DNA of 64,000 nt from Candidatus Adlerbacteria bacterium. Lineage in GTDB: Bacteria > Patescibacteriota > Minisyncoccia > Phycocordibacterales > SBAW01. Made by a program: the position numbers and the translations under genes. The stretch is from positions 3,925 to 67,924 of the forward strand of contig CAINNF010000018.1 of NCBI GenBank assembly GCA_903851045.1, read 5' to 3'. Numbering within the stretch: position 1 is the first letter of the stretch; each line of letters starts with the position of its first letter. Positions 16,066-48,487 of the stretch are shown piece after piece. The notes below the pieces were generated by a model. The model was not told where the DNA came from. It made no database searches and was given only the letters and a program-made list of their open reading frames with translations.

Positions 16066-16184
16066 ACGAAAGAAGTGGCTAAGATAATTTTTAATGGTAT
16101 ACGACCAGTGTAGCAGTCGTGCCCATCCTCACAATAGCCCTGTGTGGATAGCCTGGTCGACATGCACAAAAGCCTTACCCAACA

Positions 16185-16445: not shown

Positions 16446-16450
16446 ATCGG

Positions 16451-18171: not shown

Positions 18172-18187
18172 AGTATTTCCATGATAC

Positions 18188-18745
18188 TTAATGCATCGTT
18201 GGTCGAACCTTCTTGCGAACGACGAACCCCCAATGATATTCACCTGCGGGAATATCCTGTACGTATTCGAGCGCTACTTTTTCGAACAGGTCTCGTGCGG
18301 TACCGACCGTGAGCACGTGGTCGGGGTGTGGCCCAAGCCCCCCGAACGAATCGCGCCAGTCGATGACCACCCCGCGCCCGCCCGGACGCAGTATTCGTTC
18401 GACCTCATGTGCCGCCGCAACCCGGTCCTCCAGTGCGAACAAAAGGTTCGAGACGATGGCCACATCGAACGTATCGTCGGAGAGATGACTCCCCTTCTTC
18501 GCCTCGACATCTCCGCGCACGATCTCCACGTTGTGGAGACCTTCGGCACGCGACAGGTTGTGGATCCTGGTCAGAAGGTCCGGATTCACGTCGACGGCCC
18601 ACACCACCCCAGTGGGACCGACCATACGCGCAGCCGTGCGCGTAAAAAAGCCCGAACCCGCGCCAAGGTCGGCGACATGCATCCCCTCATGCAGTCCGAC
18701 CGCATCAAGCGCTTTCGCTGGCTGTAAGAACGAACTTTCTTCCAT
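18188..18745 (-). CDS. class I SAM-dependent methyltransferase
   Basis: VADLGAGSGFF motif I; VVWAVDVNPDLL. Confidence 0.7.
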   Translation of the reverse strand: MEESSFLQPAKALDAVGLHEGMHVADLGAGSGFFTRTAARMVGPTGVVWAVDVNPDLLTRIHNLSRAEGLHNVEIVRGDVEAKKGSHLSDDTFDVAIVSNLLFALEDRVAAAHEVERILRPGGRGVVIDWRDSFGGLGPHPDHVLTVGTARDLFEKVALEYVQDIPAGEYHWGFVVRKKVRPTMH

Positions 18746-18825
18746 TGTTCCTATTGTACATCTAAAAATATCGTACGCATCAAGTGATGATGTGTACGAG
18801 ACGACGCAACCGACACCCTCTGTGC

Positions 18826-22562: not shown

Positions 22563-23061
22563 TCAGGAATCCATACTGATTAGCACCCTCGCCGAGGGTC
22601 ACACCATTACCGCCGCATGCAAGCGCGCGGGTGTCTCTCGTATGTTCTACGATCGACACTACAAGAGCGACCGTAACTTCCGTAAACAGGTCGATGAAGC
22701 CCGGTCTGTTGGTATGCATTCCAACGAAGATCTTGTGAGTACCATGCACATGAAAAAAGTGCGGGATGGTCATTGGCCTGCAATTCGGTACGCAATTGAT
22801 AAGAAGACAACTATGGAAAAAGAAGAGAAAGAGGACCGACGAGATCCAAATAGCGTACACATTTCTCCTGGCGATATTCGATTCCTGATTGATGCACTTC
22901 CAGAACCATTAAAATCGCGCAACTACATCAGACTGCGAGAGATCCTTGATGATTCCAGCGCCGCCCAGCAAGCAGGACAGCTTATAGACCCTCGTGTCAG
23001 GGCGGAGATGAAAGTAGCAAAGCCACCACCTGAAAAGCCGATCCAAATAGATGACCTCTAG
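22549..23061 (+). CDS. HTH-domain protein (possible terminase small-subunit-like/phage regulatory)
   Basis: N-terminal HTH ILISTLAEGHTITAACKRAGVSRMFYDRH; overlaps upstream stop by 14 nt. Confidence 0.4.
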   Translation: MHKRDQESILISTLAEGHTITAACKRAGVSRMFYDRHYKSDRNFRKQVDEARSVGMHSNEDLVSTMHMKKVRDGHWPAIRYAIDKKTTMEKEEKEDRRDPNSVHISPGDIRFLIDALPEPLKSRNYIRLREILDDSSAAQQAGQLIDPRVRAEMKVAKPPPEKPIQIDDL

Positions 23062-23869: not shown

Positions 23870-24251
23870 AAATTCTACTAGGATTTATACGGCAGAGCCC
23901 GATGAGGTAATCAAAAGGCTCCCAGCCATTGCGATAGCGCCTTTCGGCAACTACCCATACCCGTTTCCAGATATGACCTAGTAGAGTGACTCTGACTGGG
24001 AGTCCTTTGATCTCTACTAGGTTTTGCAACCATATCCTGAGAATTTGACTTCTTAGGGGTTAGGTCGGCTTGTATTCAATTGTTTGTACCAAGGGGTACA
24101 AGAACAATGATAACATTTTGAGTTATCACTTGGCCACCTTAGCTTAGCTTTGGAGGCTTGCGAAGGAGGTTACCAACAGAGATATGCGCCATCTCTGGCC
24201 TCAATTTGAGCTCACTAATCTATGCGAATGTTTTACTCCCACGAGTGAGTA

Positions 24252-24519: not shown

Positions 24520-24702
24520 TTATTGGGACGATGTATTGTCAGTTGGAGCGACCGTCTGCGTCGACGTGCCTCCGCCTTGCATGAACCAATAGATGCCGCC
24601 CAACACAATGACCACGATTACGACGATGGCTATGATGGTTGATGTCTTCATAACGTTTTTCAAATTACTTATAGTTGTTAATAGAGTGAACAAAACATTC
24701 AT
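24520..24702 (-). CDS. small single-pass membrane protein
   Basis: IIAIVVIVVIVLGGIYWF TM; stop/start abuts upstream gene. Confidence 0.35.
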   Translation of the reverse strand: MNVLFTLLTTISNLKNVMKTSTIIAIVVIVVIVLGGIYWFMQGGGTSTQTVAPTDNTSSQ

Positions 24703-26963: not shown

Positions 26964-26974
26964 TGGGCCTTGGT

Positions 26975-27985
26975 TTAGAAGAACCCAAAGAGGTTGTGGA
27001 AGAAGTTACCGATGCCACCAAAGAATCCCATGCCGCCTGTATGAGGTTGCGCAGTGTTCGTGGATGACTGTACTGGAGGAGTTCCGCTATCCATCACAGA
27101 CGACGCGGTGACTGATGTGCCGTTGGTTGTGCCTTGCACCACAACGTTATCGCCAACAACCACATTCGAGATCGAAGAAGCCGCGTTGCCTTTCTCTACG
27201 GTTGCATTTGTCGCGTCCACGGTGTAGGTAACATTGCTCTTGTTGGTTACGGTGAGAATTGAACCGTTTACTGCAGTGACATTACCGCCGATGACTGGCT
27301 GACCGTTACCTTGGATGACAGGCGTCGCATTTTGGTCCGTGCCCTGCCCCTGACCTACGCCATCACGGATCGTTGTAGCGGTGACAGAGGTGCCACTCAC
27401 GGTGCCCGCAACCATCACCGTATCTCCGACCGCGATGTTAGAGACCGATGAGCTTGAGCCGCCCTTCGTGACTGTCGCGTTGGTCGCATCGACCGTGTAA
27501 GTAGTACCTGTGCTACCACCCGGACCCATTTTAGATGTGACCGTAAGCGTATTCCCACTTACTGAAGCAACCGTACCGAAGACACCTGGTGATCGTGTGC
27601 CCATGTTGCCAACTCCGCCGCGGCCGCCCATCGCTCCATCACGAATGGTTGTTGCGGTAACAGATGTGCCGCTTACCGTACCCTGTGCTGAAATCATGTC
27701 GCCGACGGCAATATCGCCAAGTGACGATGCCTCACCATTTTTAGTGACCGTAGCGTTTGTCCCATCAACACTGTAAGTGGTGGGAGTTGCATTCTGACCG
27801 TAGCCATTGCTGGTGACAGTGAGAATGTCGCCGTTTATCGCAGAGACTGTGCCGCGCACGCCGGGAGTATGTGCGCCCCCGAAGCCAGGACCAGCCGCAA
27901 ATGCGGTGCCGCTGACAAGGAGAGAGCCGAGCAATACTGAACCTGCGACGATGTATCCTATCCTGCTTTCAATTTTGTTTTTCAT
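26975..27985 (-). CDS. secreted protein with three ~100-aa internal repeats
   Basis: Signal peptide; repeated TVTS..G.G..TTYTVDATNATVTKGG.SSS...IAVGD.V...GTVSGTSVTATTIRDG. Confidence 0.55.
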   Translation of the reverse strand: MKNKIESRIGYIVAGSVLLGSLLVSGTAFAAGPGFGGAHTPGVRGTVSAINGDILTVTSNGYGQNATPTTYSVDGTNATVTKNGEASSLGDIAVGDMISAQGTVSGTSVTATTIRDGAMGGRGGVGNMGTRSPGVFGTVASVSGNTLTVTSKMGPGGSTGTTYTVDATNATVTKGGSSSSVSNIAVGDTVMVAGTVSGTSVTATTIRDGVGQGQGTDQNATPVIQGNGQPVIGGNVTAVNGSILTVTNKSNVTYTVDATNATVEKGNAASSISNVVVGDNVVVQGTTNGTSVTASSVMDSGTPPVQSSTNTAQPHTGGMGFFGGIGNFFHNLFGFF

Positions 27986-28127
27986 AGTAATTTAGATTAA
28001 TTTTTACAAGCTACTACTAACTAATACGGGAGAAAGGGGCAATTAGGTGCTCTTCACGTCCCTACAACTGTTAATACGCCCACGGGACAAAAAAACTTTC
28101 ATCCCCAATTCATTAAAAGCTGGCTGG

Positions 28128-28433
28128 CTAATGAATGATATTAAAAGCCATAGATACAACGGTTATGACAAGTAGAGTAATACCCGCCATAAAAGAGTAG
28201 TCTGCAATATCTCGATATCGGGCAACGCGGGAGGCATCGTGACGCATGGAAATATAGGAATAAATGATGCTTATTGAAAGAAGAACTGAGGAAACTGCGG
28301 CAACCTCGTCTAAAATTGTTGAATTTGCAACACCGCTTACCCGGAGCCCGGTAATGATTATCAGACAAACCCCAATAAGGTTTGCGGCCGATTGCAGTAT
28401 GTGTGACGTGGCTTCTTTTTTGTATTCGCTCAT
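28128..28433 (-). CDS. small polytopic membrane protein
   Basis: ORF with three hydrophobic segments. Confidence 0.35.
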   Translation of the reverse strand: MSEYKKEATSHILQSAANLIGVCLIIITGLRVSGVANSTILDEVAAVSSVLLSISIIYSYISMRHDASRVARYRDIADYSFMAGITLLVITVVSMAFNIIH

Positions 28434-28760
28434 ATTTTTATTTGTTAATACTGCTTGTAACTATCAGTTTTAGCAAAAGAGGCCCCTATTGGAGGTCTCT
28501 TTTGCAAAAGTTCATAGTGTTTTTTGTACCAATTGTTTTTGAGTAGAGAGTCGACGAACGCATGTGGGCCGTAAAGAGTATTGCTATCCAATCAAGCGAG
28601 TAAGTACCTAATTACAAACCGGCTTGGGGGTGCGACACTCGCGGGCAATATTGTAGTAACAATAAGTTCGCTCGAGTCCAACAGTTGCAAGTGGTTGATT
28701 ACTAGTAATGCCTCGACCTGCACTTACTACTACGCGAGCAAACAAAAATTCCTTTCAAAG

Positions 28761-29447
28761 CTACTGCTCCCAGTTATGCACTGAGCGTGCAATAAATACA
28801 CTCGTCGAAGATTCAAGCAAACCAAACATTCGTATTGTGGAACTTGCGACGGGGACAAACGAGCCTGTGGATGTTGCGACCCGAACCTTCCAAGTACGGC
28901 CGTTAAAGTCAGTAACAGAAAAATTGTTGTTATCCTGGATTGAAGTGATGACTCCAGCCAACCTTCCCACAACCGGACGGCTATATGCTTCTCCCGAATC
29001 CAGCACCAACGAATCGTAGAGCGGTATGGTATTCAAAAATTCATGAGTAATTTTCCCAACACCAAAGAAGTTGAGGATTGAGCCGAAAATAATACTCAGA
29101 ATCACACAACCCAAAACCATCACTCGTATCGGGTACCTGTATCCCTTCTTTGTGTGTTTAAGTCCGATTCGTGCAATTACTATGAATAACACGAGCGCAA
29201 TAATCCAAAGAAACGGTACCATCGCGAGAAAATCAATCACATCATGGGGCATCGCCCATAGACCGTGTTTATGGAAATCAACAAAAAGGTACAGCATCAC
29301 TCCAACGGAAAAACCACCAAGGAGTAGGGAGAGTGCGGCACACAGCCAGTAAAACACTCGCCATACGAGAAAGCGCCAACGCGGAATCGAAATAATCTGA
29401 TCCTTCTCAATCCGTCCCATTATTTTGTTTGATAGTTCTTCGCTCAT
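28761..29447 (-). CDS. putative anti-sigma factor (membrane protein co-transcribed after ECF sigma)
   Basis: Start overlaps sigma stop (ATGA); N-terminal cytoplasmic segment then multiple TM helices. Confidence 0.45.
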   Translation of the reverse strand: MSEELSNKIMGRIEKDQIISIPRWRFLVWRVFYWLCAALSLLLGGFSVGVMLYLFVDFHKHGLWAMPHDVIDFLAMVPFLWIIALVLFIVIARIGLKHTKKGYRYPIRVMVLGCVILSIIFGSILNFFGVGKITHEFLNTIPLYDSLVLDSGEAYSRPVVGRLAGVITSIQDNNNFSVTDFNGRTWKVRVATSTGSFVPVASSTIRMFGLLESSTSVFIARSVHNWEQ

Positions 29448-30028
29448 ATGGTTGTCATCCCTTTGGCTTCCAGCGCAGTTTTTAATTCTTTTTTCCCTCG
29501 GTTGATAAGTGTTGCAACGGTACCCTCCGGCATTTTTAAAATGTCGCTAATCTCAGTATAGCTTTTCTCTTCAAGAAAACGGAGAACAAAAACCTCCTTG
29601 TATTTTGGATCAAGCTCAGAAAGAAGACTCTGTACAAGACGGGCATCGTCTCGTTTATGAGTAAGTTCAACAAAATCAGTCTCATCTGCTAACTGCTCAA
29701 AAAACACGTCCGTGTCCTCTGCGCTTAAGTTTAGTACGCGGGGGCGGACTTTTTTCTTTCTAAGAAACGAAACGGTCTCATTATGAGCTATGCGATAGAG
29801 CCATGATGAAAACTTAAGGCCGGAATCATAGTCATTGAGATTAATAAATACCTTGATGAAAATCTCTTGTAGTACGTCGTCTACGTCACCGTCATCAATA
29901 CCTCCTAAACGTTTACAGTAGCGGCGGATAGGGGCCTCGTACCTATGAACAATCTCTGAAAAAGCCTGCTTATCGGTAAGAGCGGCAGCGACTAATTCTT
30001 GGTCTGTTTTTGTTGATTCTACATTCAT
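29444..30028 (-). CDS. ECF-family RNA polymerase sigma-70 factor
   Basis: Region 2 (VLQEIFIKVF...FSSWLYRIAHNETVSFLRKKK) and region 4 HTH (YTEISDILKMPEGTVATLINRGKKELK). Confidence 0.85.
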   Translation of the reverse strand: MNVESTKTDQELVAAALTDKQAFSEIVHRYEAPIRRYCKRLGGIDDGDVDDVLQEIFIKVFINLNDYDSGLKFSSWLYRIAHNETVSFLRKKKVRPRVLNLSAEDTDVFFEQLADETDFVELTHKRDDARLVQSLLSELDPKYKEVFVLRFLEEKSYTEISDILKMPEGTVATLINRGKKELKTALEAKGMTTI

Positions 30029-30198
30029 GTAACTAAAAGTCGATATCGAGGAGCCCTGGGAGCATAACTGGCTCTGGATACTTCTTGTCGCAGAAAGCTG
30101 ACTCCTCTTTATACTAGCAATCTTGACCTTTTCTTACCAACTTCGAGGGCATTCGGACGCTCTGGACTCCTTAAGGGGTCTGCGTCATCTCTTGAGGT

Positions 30199-31530
30199 AT
30201 GGAACAAATAGCAACAAGGCCCGGTTTGGGAGACACAAGGAGGCAACCCATAGCCCAGCCAGTACGAGTTAGATATTGCCTCTATGCAAGAAAGAGTACC
30301 GAGTCAGAAGAAAGACAGGTCCTTTCTATCGATTCGCAGATCAAGGAGATGCTCCAGTTGGCCGACCGTGAGGGGCTGGAGATAGTCGAATTGAAACGAG
30401 AGAGTCACTCGGCAAAAGAGACTGGGCAGCGACCTGTTTTTAACGAAATAGTAGATGAGCTAAAAGCTGGCAAATATAACGGCATACTCACGTGGGCACC
30501 AGATCGTATTAGCCGCAATGCTGGAGATCTTGGAAAGATAGTAGACCTGATGGATGCGGGGACACTTCAGGAAATACGTACTCATAGTCAAAGTTTTAGG
30601 AATAACCCCAACGAAAAGTTCCTTCTGATGATTCTCGGGTCGCAAGCGAAGCTCGAAAACGATAACCGAGGCGTAAATGTTAAGCGTGGGCTACGGACAC
30701 GCTGCGAAATGGGCCTTAGGCCGGGGGTTGCCCCAGTGGGATATTCAAATGAGAAACACGCCGACCGTAAATGTCACGCGGTTATCGACGAACTGCGCGC
30801 ACCCGTAATCAAGCAAATGTTTGAGAAAGTGGCGAACGAGCAATGGAGTGGCAGGAAATTGTACCAATGGCTGAAATTCGACCTCAACTTCAAAAGTAGG
30901 GCAAACAAAAACATGACGTTGAGTAGTGTCTACGTGGTACTTCAAAACCCCTTCTACTATGGCGTATTCGAGTATCCAGAAAAGAGCGGCAACTGGTACG
31001 ACGGCAAACATCAACCTCTTATCACCAAGGAGCTGTTCGATAAAGCGCAGGAGCAACTCAAACGAGACCGCATCCTGCGCTCCGATATTAAGGAGTTTGC
31101 CTTTATTAAGCTCATGTTATGTGGGGCTTGCGGCTCGGGCATTACAGCGGAGGAGAAGTTTAAGAAACTAAAGGACGGCACCTCAAACCGCTACGTGTAC
31201 TACGGCTGCACCCGTGCGAGGGACAAGGACTGCAAGAACGGTTACGTACGGGAGGAAGAGTTGATTACTCAGACGGTCAAAATTATGGACCACATCGACC
31301 TCAACAACATCAGCATGCGGGAAAAATTCGAGGCAGAGGTAGACCGTATGCGAAAGTTTCAACGCGCATTCACTGCCACGACAACGGATGCAAAACCGCA
31401 AAAAGAAATCGACCTGCGCGGCTACGCTAAGTATTTACTCAAGGAAGGGAGTGTGACGGAGAAGCGCGAGTTGCTGCTCTGTATTAAGAGCAAGTTGGTA
31501 CTCGACAAGGGAACTCTGAGATTGGAGTAG
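30199..31530 (+). CDS. large serine recombinase (resolvase/invertase N-domain + recombinase + zinc-ribbon)
   Basis: VRYCLYARKSTESEERQVLSIDSQ (catalytic Ser region), ...WAPDRISRN; C-terminal CGACGS...YYGCTRAR zinc ribbon. Confidence 0.85.
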   Translation: MEQIATRPGLGDTRRQPIAQPVRVRYCLYARKSTESEERQVLSIDSQIKEMLQLADREGLEIVELKRESHSAKETGQRPVFNEIVDELKAGKYNGILTWAPDRISRNAGDLGKIVDLMDAGTLQEIRTHSQSFRNNPNEKFLLMILGSQAKLENDNRGVNVKRGLRTRCEMGLRPGVAPVGYSNEKHADRKCHAVIDELRAPVIKQMFEKVANEQWSGRKLYQWLKFDLNFKSRANKNMTLSSVYVVLQNPFYYGVFEYPEKSGNWYDGKHQPLITKELFDKAQEQLKRDRILRSDIKEFAFIKLMLCGACGSGITAEEKFKKLKDGTSNRYVYYGCTRARDKDCKNGYVREEELITQTVKIMDHIDLNNISMREKFEAEVDRMRKFQRAFTATTTDAKPQKEIDLRGYAKYLLKEGSVTEKRELLLCIKSKLVLDKGTLRLE

Positions 31531-40808: not shown

Positions 40809-41105
40809 ATGCGTTCCTACAGAGGAGCGACCACTATGTCCACCTGGGTACTCGTGGCCGGGATACTTACCTACCTCATTTCGGCAGGCATCATTGGCAC
40901 CTTCGCCTATAAGGATCTGGCTCACGAGTGGCGCGCCAGAACTATCAGGGTCGAACAGGTGTTCTGGGCGAGCGTGGCGGCACTCGTCCCGGCCATCAAC
41001 ACTGGCCTCGTCATCTTCGTCACGCTGCTGTGGCTGCTGTCGACAGCACTCGAATGGGTCCACAAGAAGCTCAACGTACCCCTGTTGTCGAAGACAAAAG
41101 AATAA
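40809..41105 (+). CDS. small membrane protein
   Basis: Two TM helices. Confidence 0.35.
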   Translation: MRSYRGATTMSTWVLVAGILTYLISAGIIGTFAYKDLAHEWRARTIRVEQVFWASVAALVPAINTGLVIFVTLLWLLSTALEWVHKKLNVPLLSKTKE

Positions 41106-41121
41106 AGATATCGACCACCAT

Positions 41122-41170
41122 CCCCGGCCCAGCCGGGGATTCTCTTTTTTGTACAAGGGTTACACTTGGA
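41122..41170 (+). repeat. array junction J1: GC hairpin (CCCCGGCCCAGCCGGGG) + T-tract + TGTACAAGGGTTACACTTGGA
   Basis: Member of the 7-copy junction repeat family (terminator then palindromic operator). Confidence 0.6.
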
Positions 41171-41254
41171 CTGGGTGGCACTGTATCGTTCACACTTGAC
41201 AGATTTTAAATTTATTATAAAATACAATTAGAGTCCAAAAAAACAGAGAGGTGT

Positions 41255-41728
41255 TTGATGAAAAACCAAACCAACGTACCTGAGGCGGTCGCACACATTG
41301 CCGAGGCACTGCTTCAGCTTCCTGGTATTACAGGAGTCAAATACGTCGAAGGAGTGGAAGCGATTGCAGTAAGCGAGAGGCCACTTGTGCTGGTACTCCA
41401 TGTTGACAACGTTGTAGCTTACTCGTTCCTGACCTACACACTACAGGTAAGGGACATTCTGACGAAGACGCCTGACTCGGCTGCGGCACAGAACATCCGC
41501 AAATTGGGTGCGGGTGATTCGGCTGTACGCTGCATGGCCGCTGCACTTGCAGTGCGGCCGCACACGCAGAACCTTCTAAAGGCGCTGCGTATCGACGACA
41601 CACCCCTCGGGAGCGTGGATGTCTTGATGGTGGCGCCTGGGGACGCATTCGCAGCGCAATTGAGCACCGCTCTGTTTGGCGCCGCATACATCTTCAAGGT
41701 CCTGAAGCTTGCCAGACCGCTCGCTTGA
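41255..41728 (+). CDS. array ORF A, hypothetical (157 aa)
   Basis: AGAGAGGTG RBS; bracketed by J1 and J2. Confidence 0.45.
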   Translation: MMKNQTNVPEAVAHIAEALLQLPGITGVKYVEGVEAIAVSERPLVLVLHVDNVVAYSFLTYTLQVRDILTKTPDSAAAQNIRKLGAGDSAVRCMAAALAVRPHTQNLLKALRIDDTPLGSVDVLMVAPGDAFAAQLSTALFGAAYIFKVLKLARPLA

Positions 41729-41735
41729 CCACACA

Positions 41736-41797
41736 CCCGCCCAGCGACCCCAGAGGTCCTGGGCGGGATTTCTTTTTGTACAAGGGTTACTTTTGGA
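41736..41797 (+). repeat. array junction J2: hairpin CCCGCCCAG...CTGGGCGGG + ATTTCTTTTTG + TGTACAAGGGTTACTTTTGGA
   Basis: Junction repeat family. Confidence 0.6.
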
Positions 41798-41887
41798 AAG
41801 ATACAGCGGTGGTGGTTGACAAAAGTAAGTGTCCCATATACACTTACTTTGATTAAGTTCCTTAACTGCATATGGGGGAGACATCCC

Positions 41888-42220
41888 ATGACCGAAAAAC
41901 AAGGCTTACCTCTGATCACGCCGACCGGTGACTTCATCATCTGTACAGGATGCAGGATCGAGAAACATCACTTGCCTGGTGGGTATGAGTGCGGCGGCCA
42001 GCAAGTGCTGCTCGACCGCATTGGTGGCGAGCCGTACGTGGTTGAAAATTACTCCTGGACGACCTGGACGACTAACCCACCAGACCCATCGGTCAGATTT
42101 GCCCACATGCGTGATGCGATCGTGGCCGAACTCGTGAAGGCGGCAACGACCGAGAAACCCGGGGTCATCGACCTTCGTCTACTGCAGATCTTTCAGAAGA
42201 AACTTCGTACTGCAGCCTGA
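41888..42220 (+). CDS. array ORF B, hypothetical Cys/His-containing protein (111 aa)
   Basis: Start at MTEKQG after GGGGGAGA RBS; CTGCRIEKHH...ECGG; C-terminal DLRLLQIF motif shared with ORF C. Confidence 0.4.
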   Translation: MTEKQGLPLITPTGDFIICTGCRIEKHHLPGGYECGGQQVLLDRIGGEPYVVENYSWTTWTTNPPDPSVRFAHMRDAIVAELVKAATTEKPGVIDLRLLQIFQKKLRTAA

Positions 42221-42236
42221 CACGTTAGCCCCTTTT

Positions 42237-42298
42237 CCCGCCAAAGACCCCAAAGGTCCCCGGCGGGATTTCTTTTTGTACAAGAGTTACCCTTATCC
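42237..42298 (+). repeat. array junction J3: hairpin + ATTTCTTTTTG + TGTACAAGAGTTACCCTTATCC
   Basis: Junction repeat family (degenerate palindrome). Confidence 0.55.
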
Positions 42299-42383
42299 AG
42301 TCACGTCTTATTCTAGTTTTTTGCAAAAAACTAGAATATATCAACACTGTTTTAGTGGCCAAAAAGTCTTTCGGCGAGATTTT

Positions 42384-42406
42384 TTGTACAAGGTTTATCC
42401 TTGTAT
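42384..42406 (+). promoter_or_regulatory. 23-bp palindrome TGTACAAGGTTTATCCTTGTATA (operator-like), J4
   Basis: 9-bp arms, 5-bp spacer, 8/9 arm symmetry; no ORF follows for ~370 nt. Confidence 0.5.
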
Positions 42407-42649
42407 AGAGCAATTATTGAGAGACTAACCCAAGCTCGCTCCGATTCCCTAAAGGAAAAGCCACCCACACGCAGTCGGTGTTGGGTGGCATATAAGTGGT
42501 TCGAGCAGTCTCGAGCAGGCAGCGTCCTCGTCGTGGCTGGGACACCGCTTTTCTCACACAACTGGATGGTGTTTCATTGACGACTCCCGTCCGACCTCAG
42601 TCAAACGTTCACAGTCTCCCATCTACACTGTGCTCGTGCATAATAGCTC

Positions 42650-42740
42650 TCGACCCCGCCGGAGAGAGTCGAACTCCCCTCCCTGCCCCGTCTAGGCAGG
42701 GTCGCCGTGGCGGTTTGCTCGAACCAGCGTCATCGTACCA
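42650..42740 (-). other. tRNA 3'-half-like fragment (T-arm GGGAG-TTCGACT-CTCTC + acceptor-like CGGCGGG), not a complete tRNA
   Basis: On minus strand ...GGGGAGTTCGACTCTCTCCGGCGGGGTCG; 15/16 identity to the T-arm region of tRNA-Ser(GGA) (GGAGAGAtTCGAACTC vs GGAGAGAgTCGAACTC on +). No matching 5' acceptor or D-arm. Confidence 0.3.
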
Positions 42741-42780
42741 AAACAAATATAGAAATCAACAGCACCCTTCTATCGTTTTT

Positions 42781-42803
42781 TGCACAAGGTTTATCCTTGT
42801 ACA
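42781..42803 (+). promoter_or_regulatory. 23-bp palindrome TGCACAAGGTTTATCCTTGTACA, J5
   Basis: Best-conserved copy of the operator-like palindrome; ~80 nt upstream of ORF C. Confidence 0.5.
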
Positions 42804-42883
42804 GACTTATCGAAGGACTGACCCCAGTGTTGGATACATAGACAACAAAACGTAAAAACGGTACTGTTCTTTGCGGTGGCTCG

Positions 42884-43381
42884 GTGGCGAGCCTCATAGG
42901 GAGAAAGCCAACGCAGTCCGTTCGGACGAGAATCTTTGCTCAGACCGTTCTCGACACAATCCTTACGCCCGAGCAGTCTCGGCTTCAAAACAACCCGCGG
43001 GCAGCGTTAGCGGTCCCCATCAACATCCACTGTGGGCAGCAACGCCGGACCATTGTCGCACTGTTTCATGTCGCCCCCAACGACATGACCTGTCTCACGT
43101 GGAGGTGGGTCAACGAGGACCGCCTCCCACTACAGAGTCGATTCCACACCATGACGCAGTGGAACGTACACATGGGAGCTCTGTACGAAACCCGAGGGGG
43201 TCTGAAAGTCTTACTCAACCACTGCGTGAACATCTTTCTCGCCAGCCTTAATGCCGACGAGCACGACCCAATCACGTTCCGCCTCCTGCAAACGTTTCGA
43301 CTCGAGTTGGACGAAGGGCACACGTTCGAGGGCAATACCTTCAACTGTCAAATCCTCTCGTCCGTACTTGTGACAGCATAG
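42884..43381 (+). CDS. array ORF C, hypothetical (165 aa; GTG start in track)
   Basis: Protein-like composition; C-terminal TFRLLQTF motif similar to ORF B. Start uncertain. Confidence 0.35.
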   Translation: MASLIGRKPTQSVRTRIFAQTVLDTILTPEQSRLQNNPRAALAVPINIHCGQQRRTIVALFHVAPNDMTCLTWRWVNEDRLPLQSRFHTMTQWNVHMGALYETRGGLKVLLNHCVNIFLASLNADEHDPITFRLLQTFRLELDEGHTFEGNTFNCQILSSVLVTA

Positions 43382-43416
43382 TTCTCTCCCGCACAAGACA
43401 ACCTCACCGTCTCATC

Positions 43417-43494
43417 CCCCGCCGGAGAAGACCTCACAGGTCCCCGGCGGGATTTCTTTTTGTACAAGGTTTATCCTTGGATACTTACACCACA
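43417..43494 (+). repeat. array junction J6: CCCCGCCGGAGAAGACCTCACAGGTCCCCGGCGGG + ATTTCTTTTTG + TGTACAAGGTTTATCCTTGGATACTTACACCAC
   Basis: Canonical junction: strong terminator hairpin immediately followed by the palindrome. Confidence 0.65.
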
Positions 43495-43589
43495 CTTCTT
43501 TTTTCTATGTAATTGTCACAATTTCCGCCAGATTTGACATGCTTATATATAAATGATAAAATATTTTTTGGTAAGCATGGAGGAAAGCT

Positions 43590-43895
43590 ATGTGGCGTAT
43601 CGTGGTTGGCGATGTCGAAATCAAAACCGACAAGCTGGGTGGCCAACTTAAAGGCTCAAGGTTTGTCTTCCCTGACGGGAGCTACGTTGCTTTGCCCGGC
43701 GGTATAGTAAACCTGGGGTCTGGCAGCATCTCAACCAAAACTCTTCCGCCAGACTCAGCGCTGCCAACGGGAGAGGTCCGCTACCCCAGCGGGTACGTGA
43801 CAACCGATCAAGGCAACTCAAAAAAGATCGCCTGGTTGCCTATCGTTCTCGCCATCGCGACACTGATTGGTTGTCTGTCCTACTTCCTCCTGTAA
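43590..43895 (+). CDS. array ORF D, tail-anchored small membrane protein (101 aa)
   Basis: GGAGGAAAG RBS; C-terminal TM IAWLPIVLAIATLIGCLSYFLL. Confidence 0.4.
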   Translation: MWRIVVGDVEIKTDKLGGQLKGSRFVFPDGSYVALPGGIVNLGSGSISTKTLPPDSALPTGEVRYPSGYVTTDQGNSKKIAWLPIVLAIATLIGCLSYFLL

Positions 43896-43969
43896 AAGGG
43901 CAAGAGCTGTTATATACCCCGCCGTTAATCGTGACTGTCACCATTTCCCCGACCCTTTAGGAGAGACGT

Positions 43970-44146
43970 ATGCCGACCGCCGACACTTTGATGTTCTGCT
44001 TCCTCATGATGTCCATGGTGATTCTCGGAGCCACGGCGATATGGGGCAACTGGATCTGGGACGGCAAGTCGAAACCACCCAGTTTCTGCCGTTTCTGGTT
44101 CGTCCTTGCGCCTCGTGCATTCCTCAAATTTTTCGTGGGGCGTTAA
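43970..44146 (+). CDS. small hydrophobic protein (58 aa), not in ORF track (<60 aa)
   Basis: AGGAGAGACGT-ATG RBS; MPTADTLMFCFLMMSMVILGATAIWGNWIW... TM. Confidence 0.3.
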   Translation: MPTADTLMFCFLMMSMVILGATAIWGNWIWDGKSKPPSFCRFWFVLAPRAFLKFFVGR

Positions 44147-44292
44147 CTTATACACCGCAGACGAAGGTCCGACACCTCCTCTGCGGTTTTTCTTATGAAG
44201 AGTTGCACCATACGGACAATATGTCATGATGCGATCGGCTAGCTCGTTGTATCCACACTGGCTGTGCACGATACGCAAAAAGGAGACGCAGG

Positions 44293-44796
44293 ATGACGAG
44301 GTCCACACTTACACATATCGAGATCCAAGCCAACCTAGGCACCGAAAAAGTACCTCTCGATAAGGAGACACTGAGGTCGGCATATTTGAGGCACTCCTAT
44401 GGAGACGCCGATCTGATCTTCAAGAGACATTATAGGCGTAAATACGGAGGCACCATCACCTTTGGCGTTGCCCAGGCGAAAGATGTAGCGAAAGGACGAC
44501 TCACTCGCTACAACATCTTGGAGAGTCTCCGGGAACAGCGTTTCCGACCCTGTACATTCATGGACGCTCCATTCCTTGCGCTGTATTGCGACACTCACCA
44601 GGCACAGAAGATTCTTCTTCCTCCAGGCGAATACATAACGGTCATGGAATTGATCGAGCATCCACTTGAGAACTGGGAGCCGTTCTACCTTCAACTCGGA
44701 GTCGCACAGGGTGGGTGGTTTAGCTTTTCGGACGTCGCAGATCCAGAGAGACTCCCCCTAAACCCGACCGATTGGGTCCTGTTCAAGAAAGCCTAA
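44293..44796 (+). CDS. array ORF E, hypothetical (167 aa)
   Basis: Clean ORF, AAAGGAGACGCAGG RBS; bracketed by junction J7. Confidence 0.45.
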   Translation: MTRSTLTHIEIQANLGTEKVPLDKETLRSAYLRHSYGDADLIFKRHYRRKYGGTITFGVAQAKDVAKGRLTRYNILESLREQRFRPCTFMDAPFLALYCDTHQAQKILLPPGEYITVMELIEHPLENWEPFYLQLGVAQGGWFSFSDVADPERLPLNPTDWVLFKKA

Positions 44797-44805
44797 CAAA
44801 GCCAT

Positions 44806-44898
44806 CCCCGCCGGAGAGACCCAAAAGGTCCCCGGCGGGATTTCTTTTTGCACAAGGTTTATCCTTGAATAAGGGTTACCCTTGGATACTTACACCAC
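44806..44898 (+). repeat. array junction J7: CCCCGCCGGAGAGACCCAAAAGGTCCCCGGCGGG + T-tract + TGCACAAGGTTTATCCTTGAATAAGGGTTACCCTTGGATACTTACACCAC
   Basis: Carries both palindrome variants (ACAAGGTTTATCCTTG and CAAGGGTTACCCTTG). Confidence 0.65.
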
Positions 44899-44945
44899 TT
44901 TTTTTGCTATTTAATCGTAACTGTCCACATTTCCTTTCTCCTCTA

Positions 44946-45200
44946 TTATTTGAGTTTCTGAGCTATAACGCGAATGTTATGATCAAGAGTCGGAAGAGCC
45001 ATATTTATCTGTGCTTCAATTTTTTTTACTTCCTTCTCCAGAGCCTTTATTGAGGTGTGAAGGTCGTAAAATGGTACAACGCCAACAGGCGTACCACAAC
45101 TAACACACTGAACAAAGTACATTTTGAAATTCGCTCCAACTGGCGCAACCTCAGCTAATTCAAAATTCATCCATCCACACTTTCCACATTTTGATACCAT
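44946..45200 (-). CDS. zinc-ribbon hypothetical protein
   Basis: CGKCGW...CVSCGTP. Confidence 0.4.
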   Translation of the reverse strand: MVSKCGKCGWMNFELAEVAPVGANFKMYFVQCVSCGTPVGVVPFYDLHTSIKALEKEVKKIEAQINMALPTLDHNIRVIAQKLK

Positions 45201-45224
45201 ACATTTATTTGTAGTTAATATTGT

Positions 45225-45407
45225 TTATAATCCAAGCTTTGAACGGAGAGCTGCACCACCAAGAAGGTATGCAGCGGTGTTCATGACCTGAGTTGCTTGC
45301 GTAGGGGCTTTCCAAAAAAGCAACGCCACGATACACAGCGTCAGCGAGTAGGTAATAACTCTGGCCGCAGTATTTACGAAGTGCTTATTTTGGAGAAGCT
45401 CTTTCAT
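45225..45407 (-). CDS. small membrane protein
   Basis: ORF only; one TM. Confidence 0.25.
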   Translation of the reverse strand: MKELLQNKHFVNTAARVITYSLTLCIVALLFWKAPTQATQVMNTAAYLLGGAALRSKLGL

Positions 45408-45408
45408 G

Positions 45409-45897
45409 TTACTTTTGCAGCCCTCTTAAATAATCAAGCCCTTTCTTTTGGCTATGGAACATACCTCCTATTTTTTTAACAAAGGCGTTACGCATATTAC
45501 GAGCATTAAATGCGCCGAAGTTCTTCGCCTCGATACGATCCTTCAGTTCACTTGAGAGAAAATCTATTTCACCTGAGTTAAGACCCTTTACTCCATTTTG
45601 TTCAGCATATTCTAAAAGCCATATTATCTTGTCAGTTTTTGTTGGCAATTCGTAATAACCAGGATAGCCTTCTAGGGCTGTGGAGATAGGGAGTTCTCTG
45701 ATTTCTGCGCGGACACCGCGACCGGCAAACCCACGCCGTTCAGCAACAAACTGCTTCATAGGCTCACCCGATAGGGGGGGTAGAAGGGTGCTTTGTTCCT
45801 GACCTAACAGACTTATAATTTGACCCGCACGCTGCTGCGTAATCACCTTTTCAAAGGAAAATCCTTCGCCAAGAATTGTTAATTTTATTTCGCTCAT
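45409..45897 (-). CDS. hypothetical protein (162 aa)
   Basis: Clean ORF; stop/start abut downstream gene. Confidence 0.45.
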   Translation of the reverse strand: MSEIKLTILGEGFSFEKVITQQRAGQIISLLGQEQSTLLPPLSGEPMKQFVAERRGFAGRGVRAEIRELPISTALEGYPGYYELPTKTDKIIWLLEYAEQNGVKGLNSGEIDFLSSELKDRIEAKNFGAFNARNMRNAFVKKIGGMFHSQKKGLDYLRGLQK

Positions 45898-46000: not shown

Positions 46001-48487
46001 CTACAAACAAACGAAGCTTGCGATAGCGTCGCCGTCGCGGAGTTTCATTATTCTGACTCCTTGGGTACCTCTTGAGAGGGATGGGATTTCGGCTAGGTCG
46101 GTTCTAATCACTTGGCCTTTTTTGGAGACTACCACTATTTCGGGGGAGACTTCGGCTTCTTTGGAGACGACTCGGGCGGCGATCAGGGGGCCCGTTTTTG
46201 GCGTGACTTTGACGGTGCGGATACCGGAGCCGCCTCTGTTCTGCGTCTTGTATTCGTCGGCTGGGGTGGTCTTGCCGTAGCCGTTGCGGGAGACGACGAG
46301 GACTTCGGACGTTTTGTCGCCTTTGCGCACGACGTCGGCGCCGACGATGATGTCGCTGCCGGAGAGCTTCATGGCGCGCACACCTCCGGCGGTGCGGCCC
46401 ATGGCGCGGATGTCGCTTTCTTTAAAGCGGATTGATTGGCCAGTGGATGAGGCGAGGAGGATCTCGTCTCCCTTGTCGACGAAGAGCGCGGCGATGAGTT
46501 CGTCACCCTTGTCGAGGCGCATAGCGATGAGTCCCGAGCGACGCACATCGTGGAAGGCGGTCGCATCTACCTTCTTGGCGACACCCTTCTTCGTGATCAT
46601 ATAGAGCGCGCGCTGACCCTCCTTCTCGGTCTTGCGCATCGGGAGCACAGAGGAGACCTTTTCGCCGTCGCTTATGGAGAGGAAGTTCACTATCGCCTTA
46701 CCCTTGGTGGAGCGCTTCCCTTCTGGCAGTTCGTACATCTTGATCTGGTACGCCTTGCCAAGGTCGGTGAAGAAGAGCAGGTCAGAGTGGCTGGAGGTGG
46801 TGAGGAAGGTGGTTACGAAGTCCTCTTCTTTCGTATCGAGGTCGATGACGCCGACGCCGCCGCGCTTTTGGCGCTTGTACTCTTCGGGGTTGGTGCGCTT
46901 GACGTAGCCGCCGGAGGTGAGGACGAGCACCTGCTCCTCCTCGGGCACGAGGTCTTCGACGTTTATGATGCCTGCGGCACCCTTCATGATGCGGGTCTCG
47001 CGGTCGTCGCCGTACTTGCGGATGATCTCTTGGATCTCGCCCTTGATGACGCCGAGCATCTTCTTGTCAGACTTCAGGAGCGCATCGAGCTCAGCTATGA
47101 GCGCCTGGACTTCGGCCAGCTCGTCTTCGACTTTCTTGCGCTCGAGGTTCGCGAGCTTCTGGAGACGCATCTCGAGGATGGCGTTGGCCTGGAGCTCGGT
47201 GAACTTGAACTTCTTCATCAAGTTGAGGCGCGCGTCATTGACGTCCTTGGAGGCGCGGATGGTCTTGATGACCTCATCGATATGGTCGAGCGCCTTCTTG
47301 AGGCCAATGAGTATATGTTCGCGCTCGCGTGCGCGCGTGAGGTCGAACTGGGTGCGTCGTCGCACCACCTCGCGGCGATGTTTGATGAACTCCTGGAGTA
47401 TGCCCTTGAGCGACATCGTTTGCGGCACGCCGTCCACGAGCATAACCATGTTGAAATGGAAGGTGTCTTCCAGAGCCGTGTGCTTGTAGAGATAGTTGAG
47501 CACCTTCTGGGGCTGGGCGCCTTGCTTGAGCTCGACCACGACGCGGATGTCGCGGGTCGACTCGTCGCGCAGGCCGCGGATACCCTCTATCTTCTTGTCA
47601 CGCACCAGGTCGGCGATGCGCACGATCATGTCGGCCTTGTTGACGCGGTACGGGATAGACGTAATGACTATCTGGAAGTTACCCTTCTTGTCCTCGACTA
47701 TCTCGGCGTTACCGCGCACGACGACGCCACCGCGACCGGTGGAGTATGCATGCAAAAGATCTTTTTTATTGAAAGCGACCGCCCCTGTGGGGAAGTCCGG
47801 CCCCGAAATATCCTCCATCAGGTCTTCGACCGTTGAGTCGGGGTTCTCGATAAGACGCACCACCGCGTTGGAGACTTCGGTCAGGTTGTGCGGCGGGATG
47901 TTGGTCGCCATACCCACGGCGATACCGAGCGTACCGTTGAGCAAAATGTTGGGGAGCACCGCAGGGAGCACGGCCGGCTCCTTGAGCGTGCCGTCGTAGT
48001 TGGCGCGCCAGTCGACGGTGTCCTTGTCGATATCACGCAGCAACTCTTCGGCCACACGCGACATCTTCGCTTCGGTGTAGCGCATAGCAGCGGCAGAGTC
48101 GCCGTCAATCGAGCCGAAGTTACCTTGGCCGAGCACCAACGGGTAGCGCATAGCGAAGTCCTGCGCCATCTTGACCATAGCGTCATAGACGGACGAGTCG
48201 CCGTGCGGGTGGTACTTTCCGAGCACATCTCCGACCACTGCCGCCGACTTGCGGAAGCGCGCACCCGGGGTGAGCCCCATGCGGTGCATGGTGTAGAGGA
48301 TACGTCGGTGCACAGGCTTGAGCCCATCGCGCACGTCTGGCAGCGCGCGGGAGGTGATGACGGTCATCGCGTAGTCGATGTAGGACTCGCGCATTTCGGT
48401 CGAGATATTGCGGCCGATGACGTTCTGACGCGTCACGACCTCCTCGGGCACACTTGAATTACCTTTCTTTTTATCCTTGTCTGCCAT
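46001..48487 (-). CDS. gyrA: DNA gyrase subunit A
   Basis: 828 aa; AAMRYTE active-site Tyr region, ...QGNFGS..., C-terminal beta-pinwheel repeats. Antisense ORFs in the track are artefacts. Confidence 0.95.

What the first reader, a model, noticed from the sequence alone, without database searches (positions are those of the whole stretch)
41120..44905. Cassette-like array of short unrelated ORFs bracketed by a conserved terminator-plus-palindrome junction
Seen in sequence: seven copies of a ~50-95 bp junction occur within 3.8 kb. Each consists of a GC-rich hairpin (canonical CCCCGCCGGAGA..GACC..AGGTCCCCGGCGGG) plus ATTTCTTTTTG, immediately followed by a 23-bp palindrome TGTACAAGG-N5-CCTTGTACA (variant CAAGGGTTACCCTTG). 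Between junctions sit single short ORFs (157, 111, 165, 101+58, 167 aa) with no mutual similarity except a shared C-terminal [DT]x[RF]LLQxF motif in ORFs B and C. Two junction-bounded units (42300-42880) contain no ORF at all but carry a tRNA 3'-half-like fragment. The 'terminator - dimeric-TF operator - gene' modules resemble a hypervariable cassette/moron array or a regulon of orphan genes under one palindrome-binding regulator, and are not an obvious known system.
Basis: partly seen in the sequence, partly recalled or inferred. Interest (0 to 1): 0.75.

Follow-up and report, generated by a model that had tools for sequence, protein, structure and literature searches.

The report
Repeat-bounded orphan-gene cassette array in CPR bacterium
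A small uncultured freshwater bacterium carries, next to gyrA, a row of tiny species-only genes, each with its own promoter and terminator and each separated by the same terminator-plus-palindrome joint; close relatives keep the joint but carry different genes, so it behaves like a gene-cassette array, but no recombinase has been found.

Summary
Seven junction sites carrying eight palindromes (TTTTTG[T/C]ACAAGG-N5-CCTTG) lie at 41120-44934, and there are none in the other 60 kb. Four carry a near-identical intrinsic terminator, one carries a different hairpin, and two carry none.

The host is a Patescibacteria (Paceibacteria) metagenome-assembled genome. The region between gyrA and a methyltransferase/SBP/pilin cluster is hypervariable across the family. 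The junction itself occurs only in the window species and two close relatives, and there it bounds different cargo: a wHTH gene, a 64-aa ORF, a lipoprotein, a HIT-like gene and a 68-aa ORF.

ORFs A and E have no homologue anywhere, and no cargo ORF matches any family library. E is under purifying selection (dN/dS 0.16). All the ORFs have host-like codon periodicity. The two ORF-less units are decay products: a wHTH-deletion scar and a degenerate minus-strand unit. The tRNA likeness is weak.

Three junctions lie between convergent genes, and the distance from palindrome to promoter is unphased. That argues against a promoter operator.

Best reading (about 0.45): these are autonomous promoter-gene-terminator modules whose shared junction is the joint at which modules are inserted, lost or swapped. 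The enzyme is unknown. It is not an integron (no attC boxes, no IntI found), not a dif-module array and not rAID-1. I rate it a new variant of repeat-bounded cassette arrays, of moderate interest.

The parts
41120..41172 (+). J1: terminator hairpin of the upstream small membrane ORF U3 (a hairpin different from the canonical one), then a T-run and palindrome TGTACAAGGGTTACACTTGGACT
   Evidence: 9-bp stem plus T-run; 28 bits
41196..41223 (+). sigma-70-like promoter of ORF A (TTGACA-16-TAAAAT, 11/12)
41258..41728 (+). ORF A, 156 aa, orphan
   Evidence: self hit only; annotated frame is best
41736..41799 (+). J2: terminator with compensated arms (CCCGCCCAG/CTGGGCGGG), then U-tract and palindrome
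   Evidence: (-31.4 kcal/mol, z -3.9)
41816..41844 (+). promoter of ORF B (TTGACA-17-TACACT)
41888..42220 (+). ORF B, 110 aa, no family or homologue found
42237..42299 (+). J3: terminator, U-tract and palindrome (weakened copy)
42309..42338 (.). perfect 30-bp palindrome TATTCTAGTTTTTTG/CAAAAAACTAGAATA. It is the scar left by loss of a wHTH (ArsR/HTH_20-like) gene that sits here in relative L007.
   Evidence: (I6)
42360..42407 (+). J4: relic of the 3' hairpin arm, then T-run and near-perfect 23-bp palindrome
   Evidence: 28.9 bits
42408..42772 (-). ORF-less unit. On the minus strand it has a candidate promoter (TTGATT-N17-TACGAT, about 42759-42731, read by eye) and a terminator (42487-42455). 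It contains a truncated junction 5' arm CCCCGCCGGAGAGA (42654-42667) that overlaps the T-arm-like 17-mer. Read as a decayed cassette.
   Evidence: (D5)
42773..42803 (+). J5: T-run and near-perfect 23-bp palindrome, no hairpin
42884..43381 (+). ORF C, 165 aa (GTG start, no clear SD; some assemblies call it as 76 aa)
43417..43530 (+). J6 plus right-hand extension (ACTTACACCAC...TAATTGTCACAATTTCC)
   Evidence: (87 bits)
43534..43562 (+). promoter of D1 (TTGACA-17-TAAAAT with TG), conserved in L017
43590..43895 (+). ORF D1, 101 aa, C-terminal TM helix; reduced to a 14-codon remnant in L017/L018
43917..43950 (+). degenerate junction: 5' arm CCCCGCCG fused directly to the extension TTAATCGTGACTGTCACCATTTCC
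43970..44146 (+). ORF D2, 58 aa, membrane-like
44155..44194 (+). separate intrinsic terminator after D2 (no palindrome)
   Evidence: sequence; 13 bits, weak
44293..44796 (+). ORF E, 167 aa, orphan under purifying selection
   Evidence: dN/dS 0.16; 1 hit among 1.84e9 representatives
44806..44934 (+). J7/J8: terminator, U-tract, double palindrome and extension. It forms the right end of the array, and the next gene converges on it.
   Evidence: (-36.9 kcal/mol)

Best explanation
The locus is a strain-variable accessory island built from autonomous single-gene modules. Each module has a sigma-70-type promoter, a Shine-Dalgarno site, a lineage-restricted ORF and an intrinsic terminator. The modules are strung together by copies of one junction (J). 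J consists of a terminator hairpin and U-tract fused in fixed register to a 19-23-bp dyad, TTTTTG[T/C]ACAAGG-N5-CCTTG.

At the RNA level J ends each module's transcript. This is shown by sequence and folding, not by experiment.

At the DNA level J is the joint at which modules are gained, lost or replaced. This is inferred. A module carrying one J would recombine with a resident J in a Campbell-type integration, and excision would be the reverse. The result is a cargo segment flanked by direct J copies, as is seen for D1-D2-E between J6+ext and J7/8+ext. The exchange could be catalysed by an unidentified dimeric site-specific recombinase that binds the dyad. The geometry, 8-bp arms around a 7-bp core, would suit a tyrosine recombinase. 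Alternatively RecA could act on the 45-115 bp of shared sequence after DNA uptake.

Modules then decay in place. Examples are the wHTH scar, the ORF-less unit, and D1 truncated in a relative.
For: - J is confined to the array: 8 palindromes against 3.65 expected hits, and none in the other 60 kb.
- In the fully scanned relative bin-176 only one 1.5-kb contig carries J. No true copy was found in JGI metagenomes, IMG/VR, phage or plasmid collections.
- Three related genomes share J but carry different cargo, and none of the relatives' cargo is encoded anywhere in the window.
- Homology between genomes starts at the hairpin 5' arm and stops at or a few nt past the palindrome. After E the similarity ends at CCTTGA. 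L017J ends 8 nt after the palindrome.
- D1-D2-E is flanked by direct ~115-nt J+ext repeats.
- The dyad persists, and is most perfect, at J4 and J5 where no terminator hairpin remains. J1 combines a different hairpin with the same T-run and dyad. The dyad is therefore maintained independently of the terminator.
- J parts are reassorted. L017J has J2's 5' arm with a near-canonical 3' arm, and the spacer GTTAT is a hybrid of GTTAC and TTTAT.
- The hairpins are strong (-20 to -37 kcal/mol, z -3.4 to -4.9). Across copies 94% of cells are paired, and 3 pairs changed on both sides.
- The gyrA-to-MTase interval is a family-wide variable hotspot.
- The cargo looks like real genes: E has dN/dS 0.16, and the annotated frame is best with host-like GC3 for every ORF.
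Against: - No recombinase is adjacent. The only recombinase found in the window is a large serine recombinase about 10 kb away (30199-31530), separated by housekeeping-type genes, and the odd-length dyad fits a serine recombinase poorly.
- No tyrosine recombinase was found among the ORFs scanned. Only 64 kb of a 265-kb contig was visible.
- No cassette was seen at two different array positions, and no circular or empty-site form was seen.
- Only three lineages carry J, so turnover rests on few events.
- Some differences are ordinary deletions that do not involve J. The wHTH was lost between TTTTGCAAAA repeats, and D1 was lost by microhomology.
- The outer right half of the dyad is poorly conserved.
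- A terminator followed by TTTTCTTTTTGCACAA also follows an unrelated gene in relatives, so part of J may simply be a clade-typical terminator.
Confidence: 0.45

Rival explanations
1. Regulatory or insulator site. The dyad is the operator of a dimeric DNA-binding protein (a wHTH or similar) that co-regulates or insulates the orphan genes. On this view J is conserved for regulation, not recombination.
For: - A 9-5-9 dyad is typical of dimeric HTH operators.
- Most palindromes lie 25-62 nt upstream of a strong -35 box.
- A wHTH gene is a recurrent resident of this hotspot (L007, L023, L026). In L007 a J palindrome lies in the divergent region between that gene and the next cassette.
- The dyad survives without the terminator at J4 and J5.
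Against: - J7/8, L007c and L017J lie between convergent genes, with no promoter downstream.
- The distance from dyad centre to -35 (about 25, 29, 33, 35, 38, 42, 62 nt) is not phased.
- The dyad keeps exact register with the U-tract instead.
- The wHTH is flanked by a different palindrome (GTATTTTGCAAAATAC / CTAGTTTTTTGCAAAAAACTAG), and the gene is deleted in the window while J persists.
- The outer right half-site is not conserved.
Confidence: 0.2
2. Passive repeat. J is just one efficient terminator with adjoining sequence that was copied around the island by local duplication and gene conversion. The palindrome has no function of its own, and cargo differences arise from ordinary insertions and deletions in a recombination-prone hotspot.
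For: - The hotspot is variable in relatives that lack J.
- Some indels do not involve J.
- A similar terminator plus TTTTCTTTTTGCACAA occurs at an unrelated gene in relatives.
- L026 also has a 42-nt terminator-like repeat after two different genes.
Against: - The T-run and dyad are retained, at their most perfect, where the hairpin is gone (J4, J5), and they are attached to a different hairpin at J1.
- The dyad core is kept across three genomes whose E gene differs by dS 0.13.
- Breakpoints of cargo differences coincide repeatedly with J edges.
- The ORFs and promoters between J copies are unrelated, so whole units were not duplicated.
Confidence: 0.2
3. Selfish miniature repeat. J is a REP/BIME-, MITE- or IS200/IS605-PATE-like element that has inserted repeatedly at gene 3' ends.
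For: It is a short palindromic unit at gene 3' ends. REPs often double as terminators. The last site carries a double palindrome.
Against: - All copies have one orientation and lie within a single 3.8-kb locus.
- There are none in the other 60 kb. There is one contig only in the fully scanned bin-176 assembly, and none in about 118 kb of relatives.
- No terminal inverted repeats or target-site duplications surround J.
- No RAYT/TnpA-type gene was found among the ORFs scanned.
Confidence: 0.08
4. A true integron cassette array or CALIN, or a Xer-dependent dif-module array, that has diverged beyond easy recognition.
For: Array topology, small orphan cargo, a hairpin with bulged bases, and variable content.
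Against: - No junction contains an R'' (RYYYAAC) or R' (GTTRRRY) box on either strand.
- Every module has its own promoter.
- No IntI or Xer gene was found in the ORFs scanned.
- The dyad is 9-5-9 rather than 11-6-11 and lacks the dif consensus.
- The sites do not alternate in orientation.
Confidence: 0.04

Closest known systems
Integron cassette arrays and CALINs (clusters of attC sites lacking an integrase; PMC4889954)
   Same: A tandem, same-orientation array of small, mostly unknown-function ORFs. Each is followed by a structured repeat that marks the cassette boundary. Content varies between close relatives. The predicted topology is a circle carrying one site integrating into an array.
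   Different: The junction has no attC R''/R' boxes. It is a GC-rich Rho-independent terminator plus a separate dyad. Each module carries its own sigma-70 promoter instead of relying on Pc. No IntI was found. The host is a CPR bacterium.
rAID-1 arrays of Bacteroidales (recombinase-associated acquired interbacterial defence; bioRxiv 10.1101/471110)
   Same: Long arrays of small orphan genes separated by repetitive intergenic sequences described as 'reminiscent of integrons', with evidence of gene acquisition.
   Different: rAID-1 is defined by a conserved XerD-family recombinase at the head, by skewed GC, and by cargo homologous to immunity genes. Here no such recombinase was seen, GC3 is host-like, and the cargo matches no family.
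Acinetobacter dif modules bounded by pdif (XerC/XerD) sites (PMC6449649, PMC13141974)
   Same: Discrete one- to few-gene modules bounded by short dyad sites, and shuffled between replicons without a module-encoded recombinase.
   Different: pdif sites are 28 bp (11-6-11), carry the dif consensus and alternate in orientation. J is 9-5-9 with no dif consensus, all copies are in direct orientation, it is fused to a terminator, and it is chromosomal.
Prophage morons (own knowledge: promoter-gene-terminator units inserted between phage genes)
   Same: Each unit is an autonomous expression module with its own promoter and factor-independent terminator.
   Different: Morons are single insertions in phage genomes and do not share a common junction. 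Here no phage genes flank the array, and neither the ORFs nor the junction match phage collections.
REP/BIME and Correia-type intergenic repeats (own knowledge)
   Same: Short palindromic repeats at gene 3' ends that can act as terminators.
   Different: Those are dispersed in tens to hundreds of copies. J is restricted to one locus.

Membership tests
Integron / CALIN | attC sites with R'' (RYYYAAC) and R' (GTTRRRY) core boxes flanking an imperfect palindrome | tested here: not met
   Regex on both strands found no R' or R'' box in any of the 7 junctions. The only paired hit in 41100-44950 lies inside ORF C, at the chance level (0.6 expected). The IntegronFinder attC covariance model itself could not be run.
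Integron / CALIN | IntI-type tyrosine recombinase with attI and Pc next to the array (complete integrons only) | tested here: not met
   Pfam scans of the flanking ORFs and of most large ORFs in the window gave no Phage_integrase hit. The neighbours are LemA/DUF2207/M48 on one side and gyrA on the other. The rest of the genome was not visible.
Integron / CALIN | largely promoterless cassettes | tested here: not met
   Sigma-70-like promoters scoring 10-11/12 precede A, B and D1. Candidates for C and the L007/L027 cassettes were read by eye.
Integron / CALIN | cassette content varies between close relatives, with the repeat at the boundaries | tested here: met
   Window compared with L007, L017 and L027/L028.
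Xer-dependent dif modules | 28-bp sites, 11-bp XerC and XerD arms around a 6-bp spacer, with the dif consensus | tested here: not met
   The dyad is 9-5-9 (or 8-7-8). The dif-core pattern has no match in the array.
Xer-dependent dif modules | sites alternate in orientation around modules | tested here: not met
   All junctions share one orientation. The asymmetric spacers TTTAT and GTTAC and the upstream T-run always lie on the + strand.
rAID-1 | conserved XerD-family recombinase heading the array | tested here: not met
   None was found in the window ORFs scanned.
rAID-1 | repetitive intergenic sequences between the ORFs | tested here: met
rAID-1 | cargo homologous to immunity genes; GC content skewed relative to the host | tested here: not met
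   No Pfam, NCBIfam, PHROG or PADLOC hits. Cargo GC3 is 0.58-0.74, within or near the core-gene range of 0.60-0.79.
REP/BIME/MITE-type dispersed repeats | many copies dispersed through the genome | tested here: not met
   0 copies in the other 60 kb of the window. One 1.5-kb contig in the whole bin-176 assembly. None in about 118 kb of relatives by covariance model. The complete genome of the window organism was not available.
Rho-independent (intrinsic) terminator | stable GC-rich hairpin immediately followed by a U-tract at a gene's 3' end | tested here: met
   J1, J2, J3, J6 and J7 fold at -20 to -37 kcal/mol; for J2, J3, J6 and J7 the z-score is -3.4 to -4.0 (J1: z -1.5). Each is followed by (A)TTTCTTTTT, 7-34 nt after the stop codon. 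The arms are kept paired through changes on both sides. Termination was not measured.
Single-regulator operon set (regulon operator) | operator in fixed or helically phased position relative to each regulated promoter | tested here: not met
   Centre-to-(-35) distances run from about 25 to 62 nt without phasing. Three junctions have no downstream promoter.

The most novel reading that the evidence does not exclude
A previously undescribed, integron-like gene-capture system in Candidate Phyla Radiation bacteria. Each cassette would be a complete expression unit (promoter, gene, terminator). The terminator-linked dyad TTTTTGTACAAGG-N5-CCTTG would act as the cassette recombination site for a recombinase encoded elsewhere in the genome. 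The system would supply and turn over lineage-specific orphan genes in an otherwise streamlined genome.
Probability: 0.2. Interest if true: 0.8.

Novelty: new variant of a known kind. Interest (0 to 1): 0.5.

Why it matters
CPR/Patescibacteria have tiny, streamlined genomes and many genes of unknown origin, and how they gain and lose accessory genes is poorly understood. This locus appears to be a dedicated site where self-sufficient orphan-gene modules are swapped between near relatives at a common joint. That would be a tractable example of cassette-style gene flux outside the integron, Xer and rAID paradigms. It also couples a transcription terminator physically to a putative recombination or binding site. 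If instead the joint is only a copied terminator, the locus is still a clean example of a family-wide hypervariable hotspot next to gyrA, with orphan genes under purifying selection.

Tried and rejected
- **Collection scans.** An exact-pattern scan of GTDB genomes gave only L007 plus one chance terminator in Falsibacillus. Scans of JGI metagenomes and IMG/VR gave only chance hits that lack the palindrome. These collections hold no further arrays.
- **Phage and plasmid searches.** Blastn of J+ext and tblastn of the concatenated cargo found no match.
- **Family libraries.** Pfam, NCBIfam, PHROGs and PADLOC found nothing for A-E.
- **Homologue searches.** E matched only itself among 1.84 billion representatives. 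A matched only itself. A concatenated 821-aa query returned nothing at all and wasted one search.
- **Structure prediction.** AlphaFold2 on single sequences of E and A gave pLDDT 32 and 44, which is unusable, so no fold search was run.
- **tRNA or att-site idea.** The fragment at 42650-42740 is not a tRNA or tmRNA by ARAGORN or Rfam. It matches tRNA-Ser only in a 17-nt T-arm. Its CCCCGCCGGAGAGA is better read as a truncated junction arm.
- **wHTH as the palindrome binder.** Rejected as the simplest reading, because its orthologues are flanked by a different palindrome.
- **Replication terminus or dif idea.** Cumulative GC skew peaks near 27-31 kb, but no dif-like site was found.
- **Large serine recombinase as the cassette enzyme.** It lies 10 kb away, no J-like sequence is near it, and the odd-length dyad is atypical for serine recombinases. 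It is not excluded.
- **Diverged junctions in more distant relatives.** The covariance model of J found none in their hotspots. It found only ordinary terminators with a similar U-tract.

Full report
**1. The observation**

The region 41120-44934 contains seven junction sites that carry eight copies of the dyad TGTACAAGG-N5-CCTTG(TACA). The pattern, allowing up to 3 mismatches, gives 15 strand-hits against 3.65 +/- 1.78 in shuffles, and every hit lies within 41150-44888. The T-run plus left half-site, TTTTTGTACAAGG, is likewise confined to the array. The 21-mer CCCCGGCGGGATTTCTTTTTG occurs four times against zero expected.

- J2 (41736), J3 (42237), J6 (43417) and J7 (44806) carry the canonical GC hairpin.
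- J1 (41120) joins a different hairpin to the same T-run and dyad.
- J4 (42360) keeps only a relic of the 3' arm.
- J5 (42773) has no hairpin.
- J4 and J5 nevertheless have the most perfect 23-bp palindromes.
- J7 is followed 17 nt later by a second palindrome, J8.
- J6 and J7/8 share a further ~50-nt extension (ACTTACACCAC...TTAATCGTGACTGTCACC.TTTCC), so the repeat there is ~115-130 nt. A deleted version of that junction lies between D1 and D2 at 43917-43950.

The hairpins are strong. They fold at -20 to -37 kcal/mol with z of -3.4 to -4.9 (J1 alone is weak, z -1.5), and each is followed by ATTTCTTTTT. Across eight copies 94% of cells pair, and three pairs changed on both sides. These are ordinary-looking intrinsic terminators.

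Sigma-70-like promoters scoring 10-11 of 12 follow the palindromes at 41196, 41816 and 43534.

The ORFs are 156, 110, 165, 101+58 and 167 aa. They show no significant pairwise similarity, and the B/C 'LLQxF' motif is not significant.

**2. Organism and setting**

GyrA (46001-48487, minus strand) is most similar to proteins of Patescibacteria, in the Paceibacteria / Adlerbacteria / Kaiserbacteria group. The exact proteins of the locus occur on only 2-10 contigs, from lake metagenomes and MAGs. Contigs of the same species carry an identical array (L001-L006, L029, L030).

In relatives with 89-91% GyrA identity, gyrA is followed within 0.1-3.7 kb by a methyltransferase / SBP / T4SS-pilin cluster. 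That cluster corresponds to window 15800-18767. The short interval between gyrA and the cluster holds a different gene set in every genome:
- L019: ORFs of 162 and 65 aa.
- L020: a HAD hydrolase.
- L023: a Ser_hydrolase, a wHTH and a 106-aa ORF.
- L026: DUF3850, NUDIX, a 193-aa ORF, an ANT-like protein, a wHTH, a Ser_hydrolase and a 111-aa ORF.

The gyrA-to-MTase interval is therefore a family-wide hypervariable hotspot. None of these more distant relatives has the junction, either by motif search or by a covariance model built from seven J copies.

In the window the interval has grown to 26.6 kb. It also holds a large serine recombinase (30199-31530), an ECF sigma factor, a ParB-methylase, a TerS-like gene, tRNA-Ser and LemA/DUF2207/M48.

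**3. Relatives that do have the junction**

- **L007** (bin-176, 1.5 kb, the only true hit in 185,579 species genomes). It has three junctions. Between the first two sits a minus-strand wHTH (ArsR/HTH_5-like). Next comes a 64-aa ORF. The third junction, J+ext, is followed by a different convergent 131-aa ORF.
- **L017 with L018, L027 and L028** (a near relative; D2/E are 92-93% identical at the nucleotide level). The order is the MTase/SBP/pilin cluster, a 55-aa lipoprotein, J, a minus-strand HIT-like ORF, the D1 promoter, D1 reduced to 14 codons, D2', E', J, a new 68-aa membrane ORF, and further ORFs.

None of these foreign cargo proteins is encoded anywhere in the 64-kb window.

Similarity between genomes begins at the hairpin 5' arm. 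It ends at, or a few nt after, the palindrome. After E it stops at CCTTGA.

Parts of J are reassorted. L017J has J2's 5' arm together with a near-canonical 3' arm. The spacer GTTAT in L007c and L017J is a hybrid of the two window spacer types, GTTAC and TTTAT.

**4. The ORF-less units**

The stretch 42300-42384 aligns with both flanks of the L007 wHTH gene. The gene has been lost between direct copies of TATTCTAGTTTTT(T)GCA, which left a perfect 30-bp palindrome at 42309-42338. In L023 and L026 the orthologous wHTH is flanked by GTATTTTGCAAAATAC-type palindromes. These are therefore its likely own sites, and the J dyad is not.

The stretch 42408-42772 has a minus-strand promoter-like site and a minus-strand terminator. 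It also contains CCCCGCCGGAGAGA, which is identical to the junction 5' arm (family D5). Its 'tRNA' likeness is a 16/17-nt T-arm match only, with no ARAGORN call and no Rfam hit at E<=5. I read this unit as a decayed module.

**5. Cargo**

- E differs from its L018 orthologue at 15 synonymous and 8 non-synonymous codons, giving dN/dS 0.16.
- All nine small ORFs, U1-U3 and A-E, score best in the annotated frame under a host codon model. Their GC3 is 0.58-0.74, similar to the host.
- The convergent block R84/R60/R162 has GC3 0.33-0.48 and looks foreign.
- E matches only itself among 1.84 billion cluster representatives. A matches only itself.
- There are no Pfam, NCBIfam, PHROG or PADLOC hits, and no phage or plasmid hits.
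- Structure prediction failed, with pLDDT 32 and 44.
- D1, D2 and U1-U3 look membrane-anchored, judged from their sequences.

**6. Mechanism**

*Shown.* J contains a bona fide terminator architecture. The modules have their own promoters and SD sites. J is locus-restricted, is shared by three lineages and sits at the edges of cargo differences. The dyad is maintained independently of the hairpin.

*Inferred.* J is the joint for module turnover. D1-D2-E, flanked by direct J+ext copies, is what integration of a circle carrying one J into a resident J would produce. Either an unidentified dimeric recombinase acting on the dyad or RecA acting on the 45-115-bp homology would fit. I put this reading at about 0.45.

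*The regulon reading (about 0.2)* is weakened on several counts. Three junctions lie between convergent genes. The palindrome-to-promoter spacing, about 25-62 nt, is unphased. The dyad keeps a fixed register with the U-tract rather than the promoter.

*A purely passive copied terminator (about 0.2)* is weakened by J1, J4 and J5. It is helped by a similar terminator plus TTTTCTTTTTGCACAA at an unrelated gene in relatives, and by indels that do not involve J.

*A REP/MITE-like repeat (about 0.08) and a true integron or dif-module array (about 0.04)* fail specific tests.

**7. Comparison with known systems**

The locus works most like an integron/CALIN or an rAID-1 array: same-orientation small cassettes, a structured repeat at each boundary, and strain-level turnover. 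It is a member of none of them.
- It has no attC boxes and no IntI or XerD-type gene nearby.
- Its cassettes are promoter-bearing.
- Its GC is host-like.
- Its sites do not fit the dif consensus and do not alternate in orientation.

The definition of rAID-1 is taken from bioRxiv 10.1101/471110. CALINs are from PMC4889954, and dif modules from PMC6449649 and PMC13141974.

**8. Verdict**

The finding is real and is not an artefact. The 'operator regulon' and the 'tRNA fragment' are not.

I rate it a new variant of repeat-bounded cassette arrays, in an unusual host. Interest is moderate (0.5). It is limited by the narrow distribution (three lineages), the absence of an identified recombinase, and the unknown function of the cargo.

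Noticed in passing
window 23933-24066 (-): LOOT RNA (Rfam RF03000) match, 72.5 bits against a gathering score of 46.4. It lies inside the 26.6-kb segment that relatives lack.
   Followed up: no
window 18746-45408: This 26.6-kb segment separates gyrA from the MTase/SBP/T4SS-pilin cluster, which are adjacent in relatives L019, L020, L023 and L026. It carries a large serine recombinase (30199-31530), an ECF sigma factor (29444-30028), a ParB_N+N6_N4 methylase (21225-22562), a TerS-like ORF (22549-23061), a 754-aa Ig/PKD/PG-binding surface protein (24699-26963), DUF4238 and tRNA-Ser(gga). It may be a mosaic of an integrated element and a rearrangement.
   Followed up: partly
window 42309-42338; L007 81-395 (-); L023 7947-8264; L026 5728-6045: A small wHTH (ArsR/HTH_20-like) gene is a recurrent resident of the gyrA hotspot. 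It is flanked by TTTTGCAAAA-centred palindromes, one of which overlaps its last codons. In the window the gene is deleted, leaving a perfect 30-bp palindrome.
   Followed up: yes
window 44946-45897 (-): The three convergent ORFs (84, 60 and 162 aa) between the array and gyrA have GC3 0.33-0.48, against 0.60-0.79 in core genes, so they look recently acquired. The 84-aa zinc-ribbon-like protein hits phrog_9414 (E 8e-8). The near relative carries different genes at this position.
   Followed up: partly
window 6000-9000: Low-GC block (0.32-0.42) with two large ORFs (6100-7587 on +, 7792-8763 on -) that have no Pfam match. It is probably foreign DNA.
   Followed up: no
window 26000-31000: Cumulative GC skew peaks here, which might mark a replication terminus. 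No dif-like site was found with a core-consensus search.
   Followed up: partly
L024 6843-6898; L019 6478-6530: In relatives, an unrelated 203/204-aa gene ends with a terminator followed by TTTTCTTTTTGCACAA. This resembles the U-tract and left edge of the junction, so that part of J may descend from a clade-typical terminator.
   Followed up: partly
L027 1-225: The 5' end of this metagenome contig encodes a purL-like fragment fused directly to the start of E'. This is most likely a chimeric assembly.
   Followed up: no
L004, L006 (ends); L017 9826: Two independent same-species assemblies break at window position about 43522. This is exactly where the L017-type variant starts to match the window, which suggests that both array variants co-occur in the sampled populations.
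   Followed up: partly
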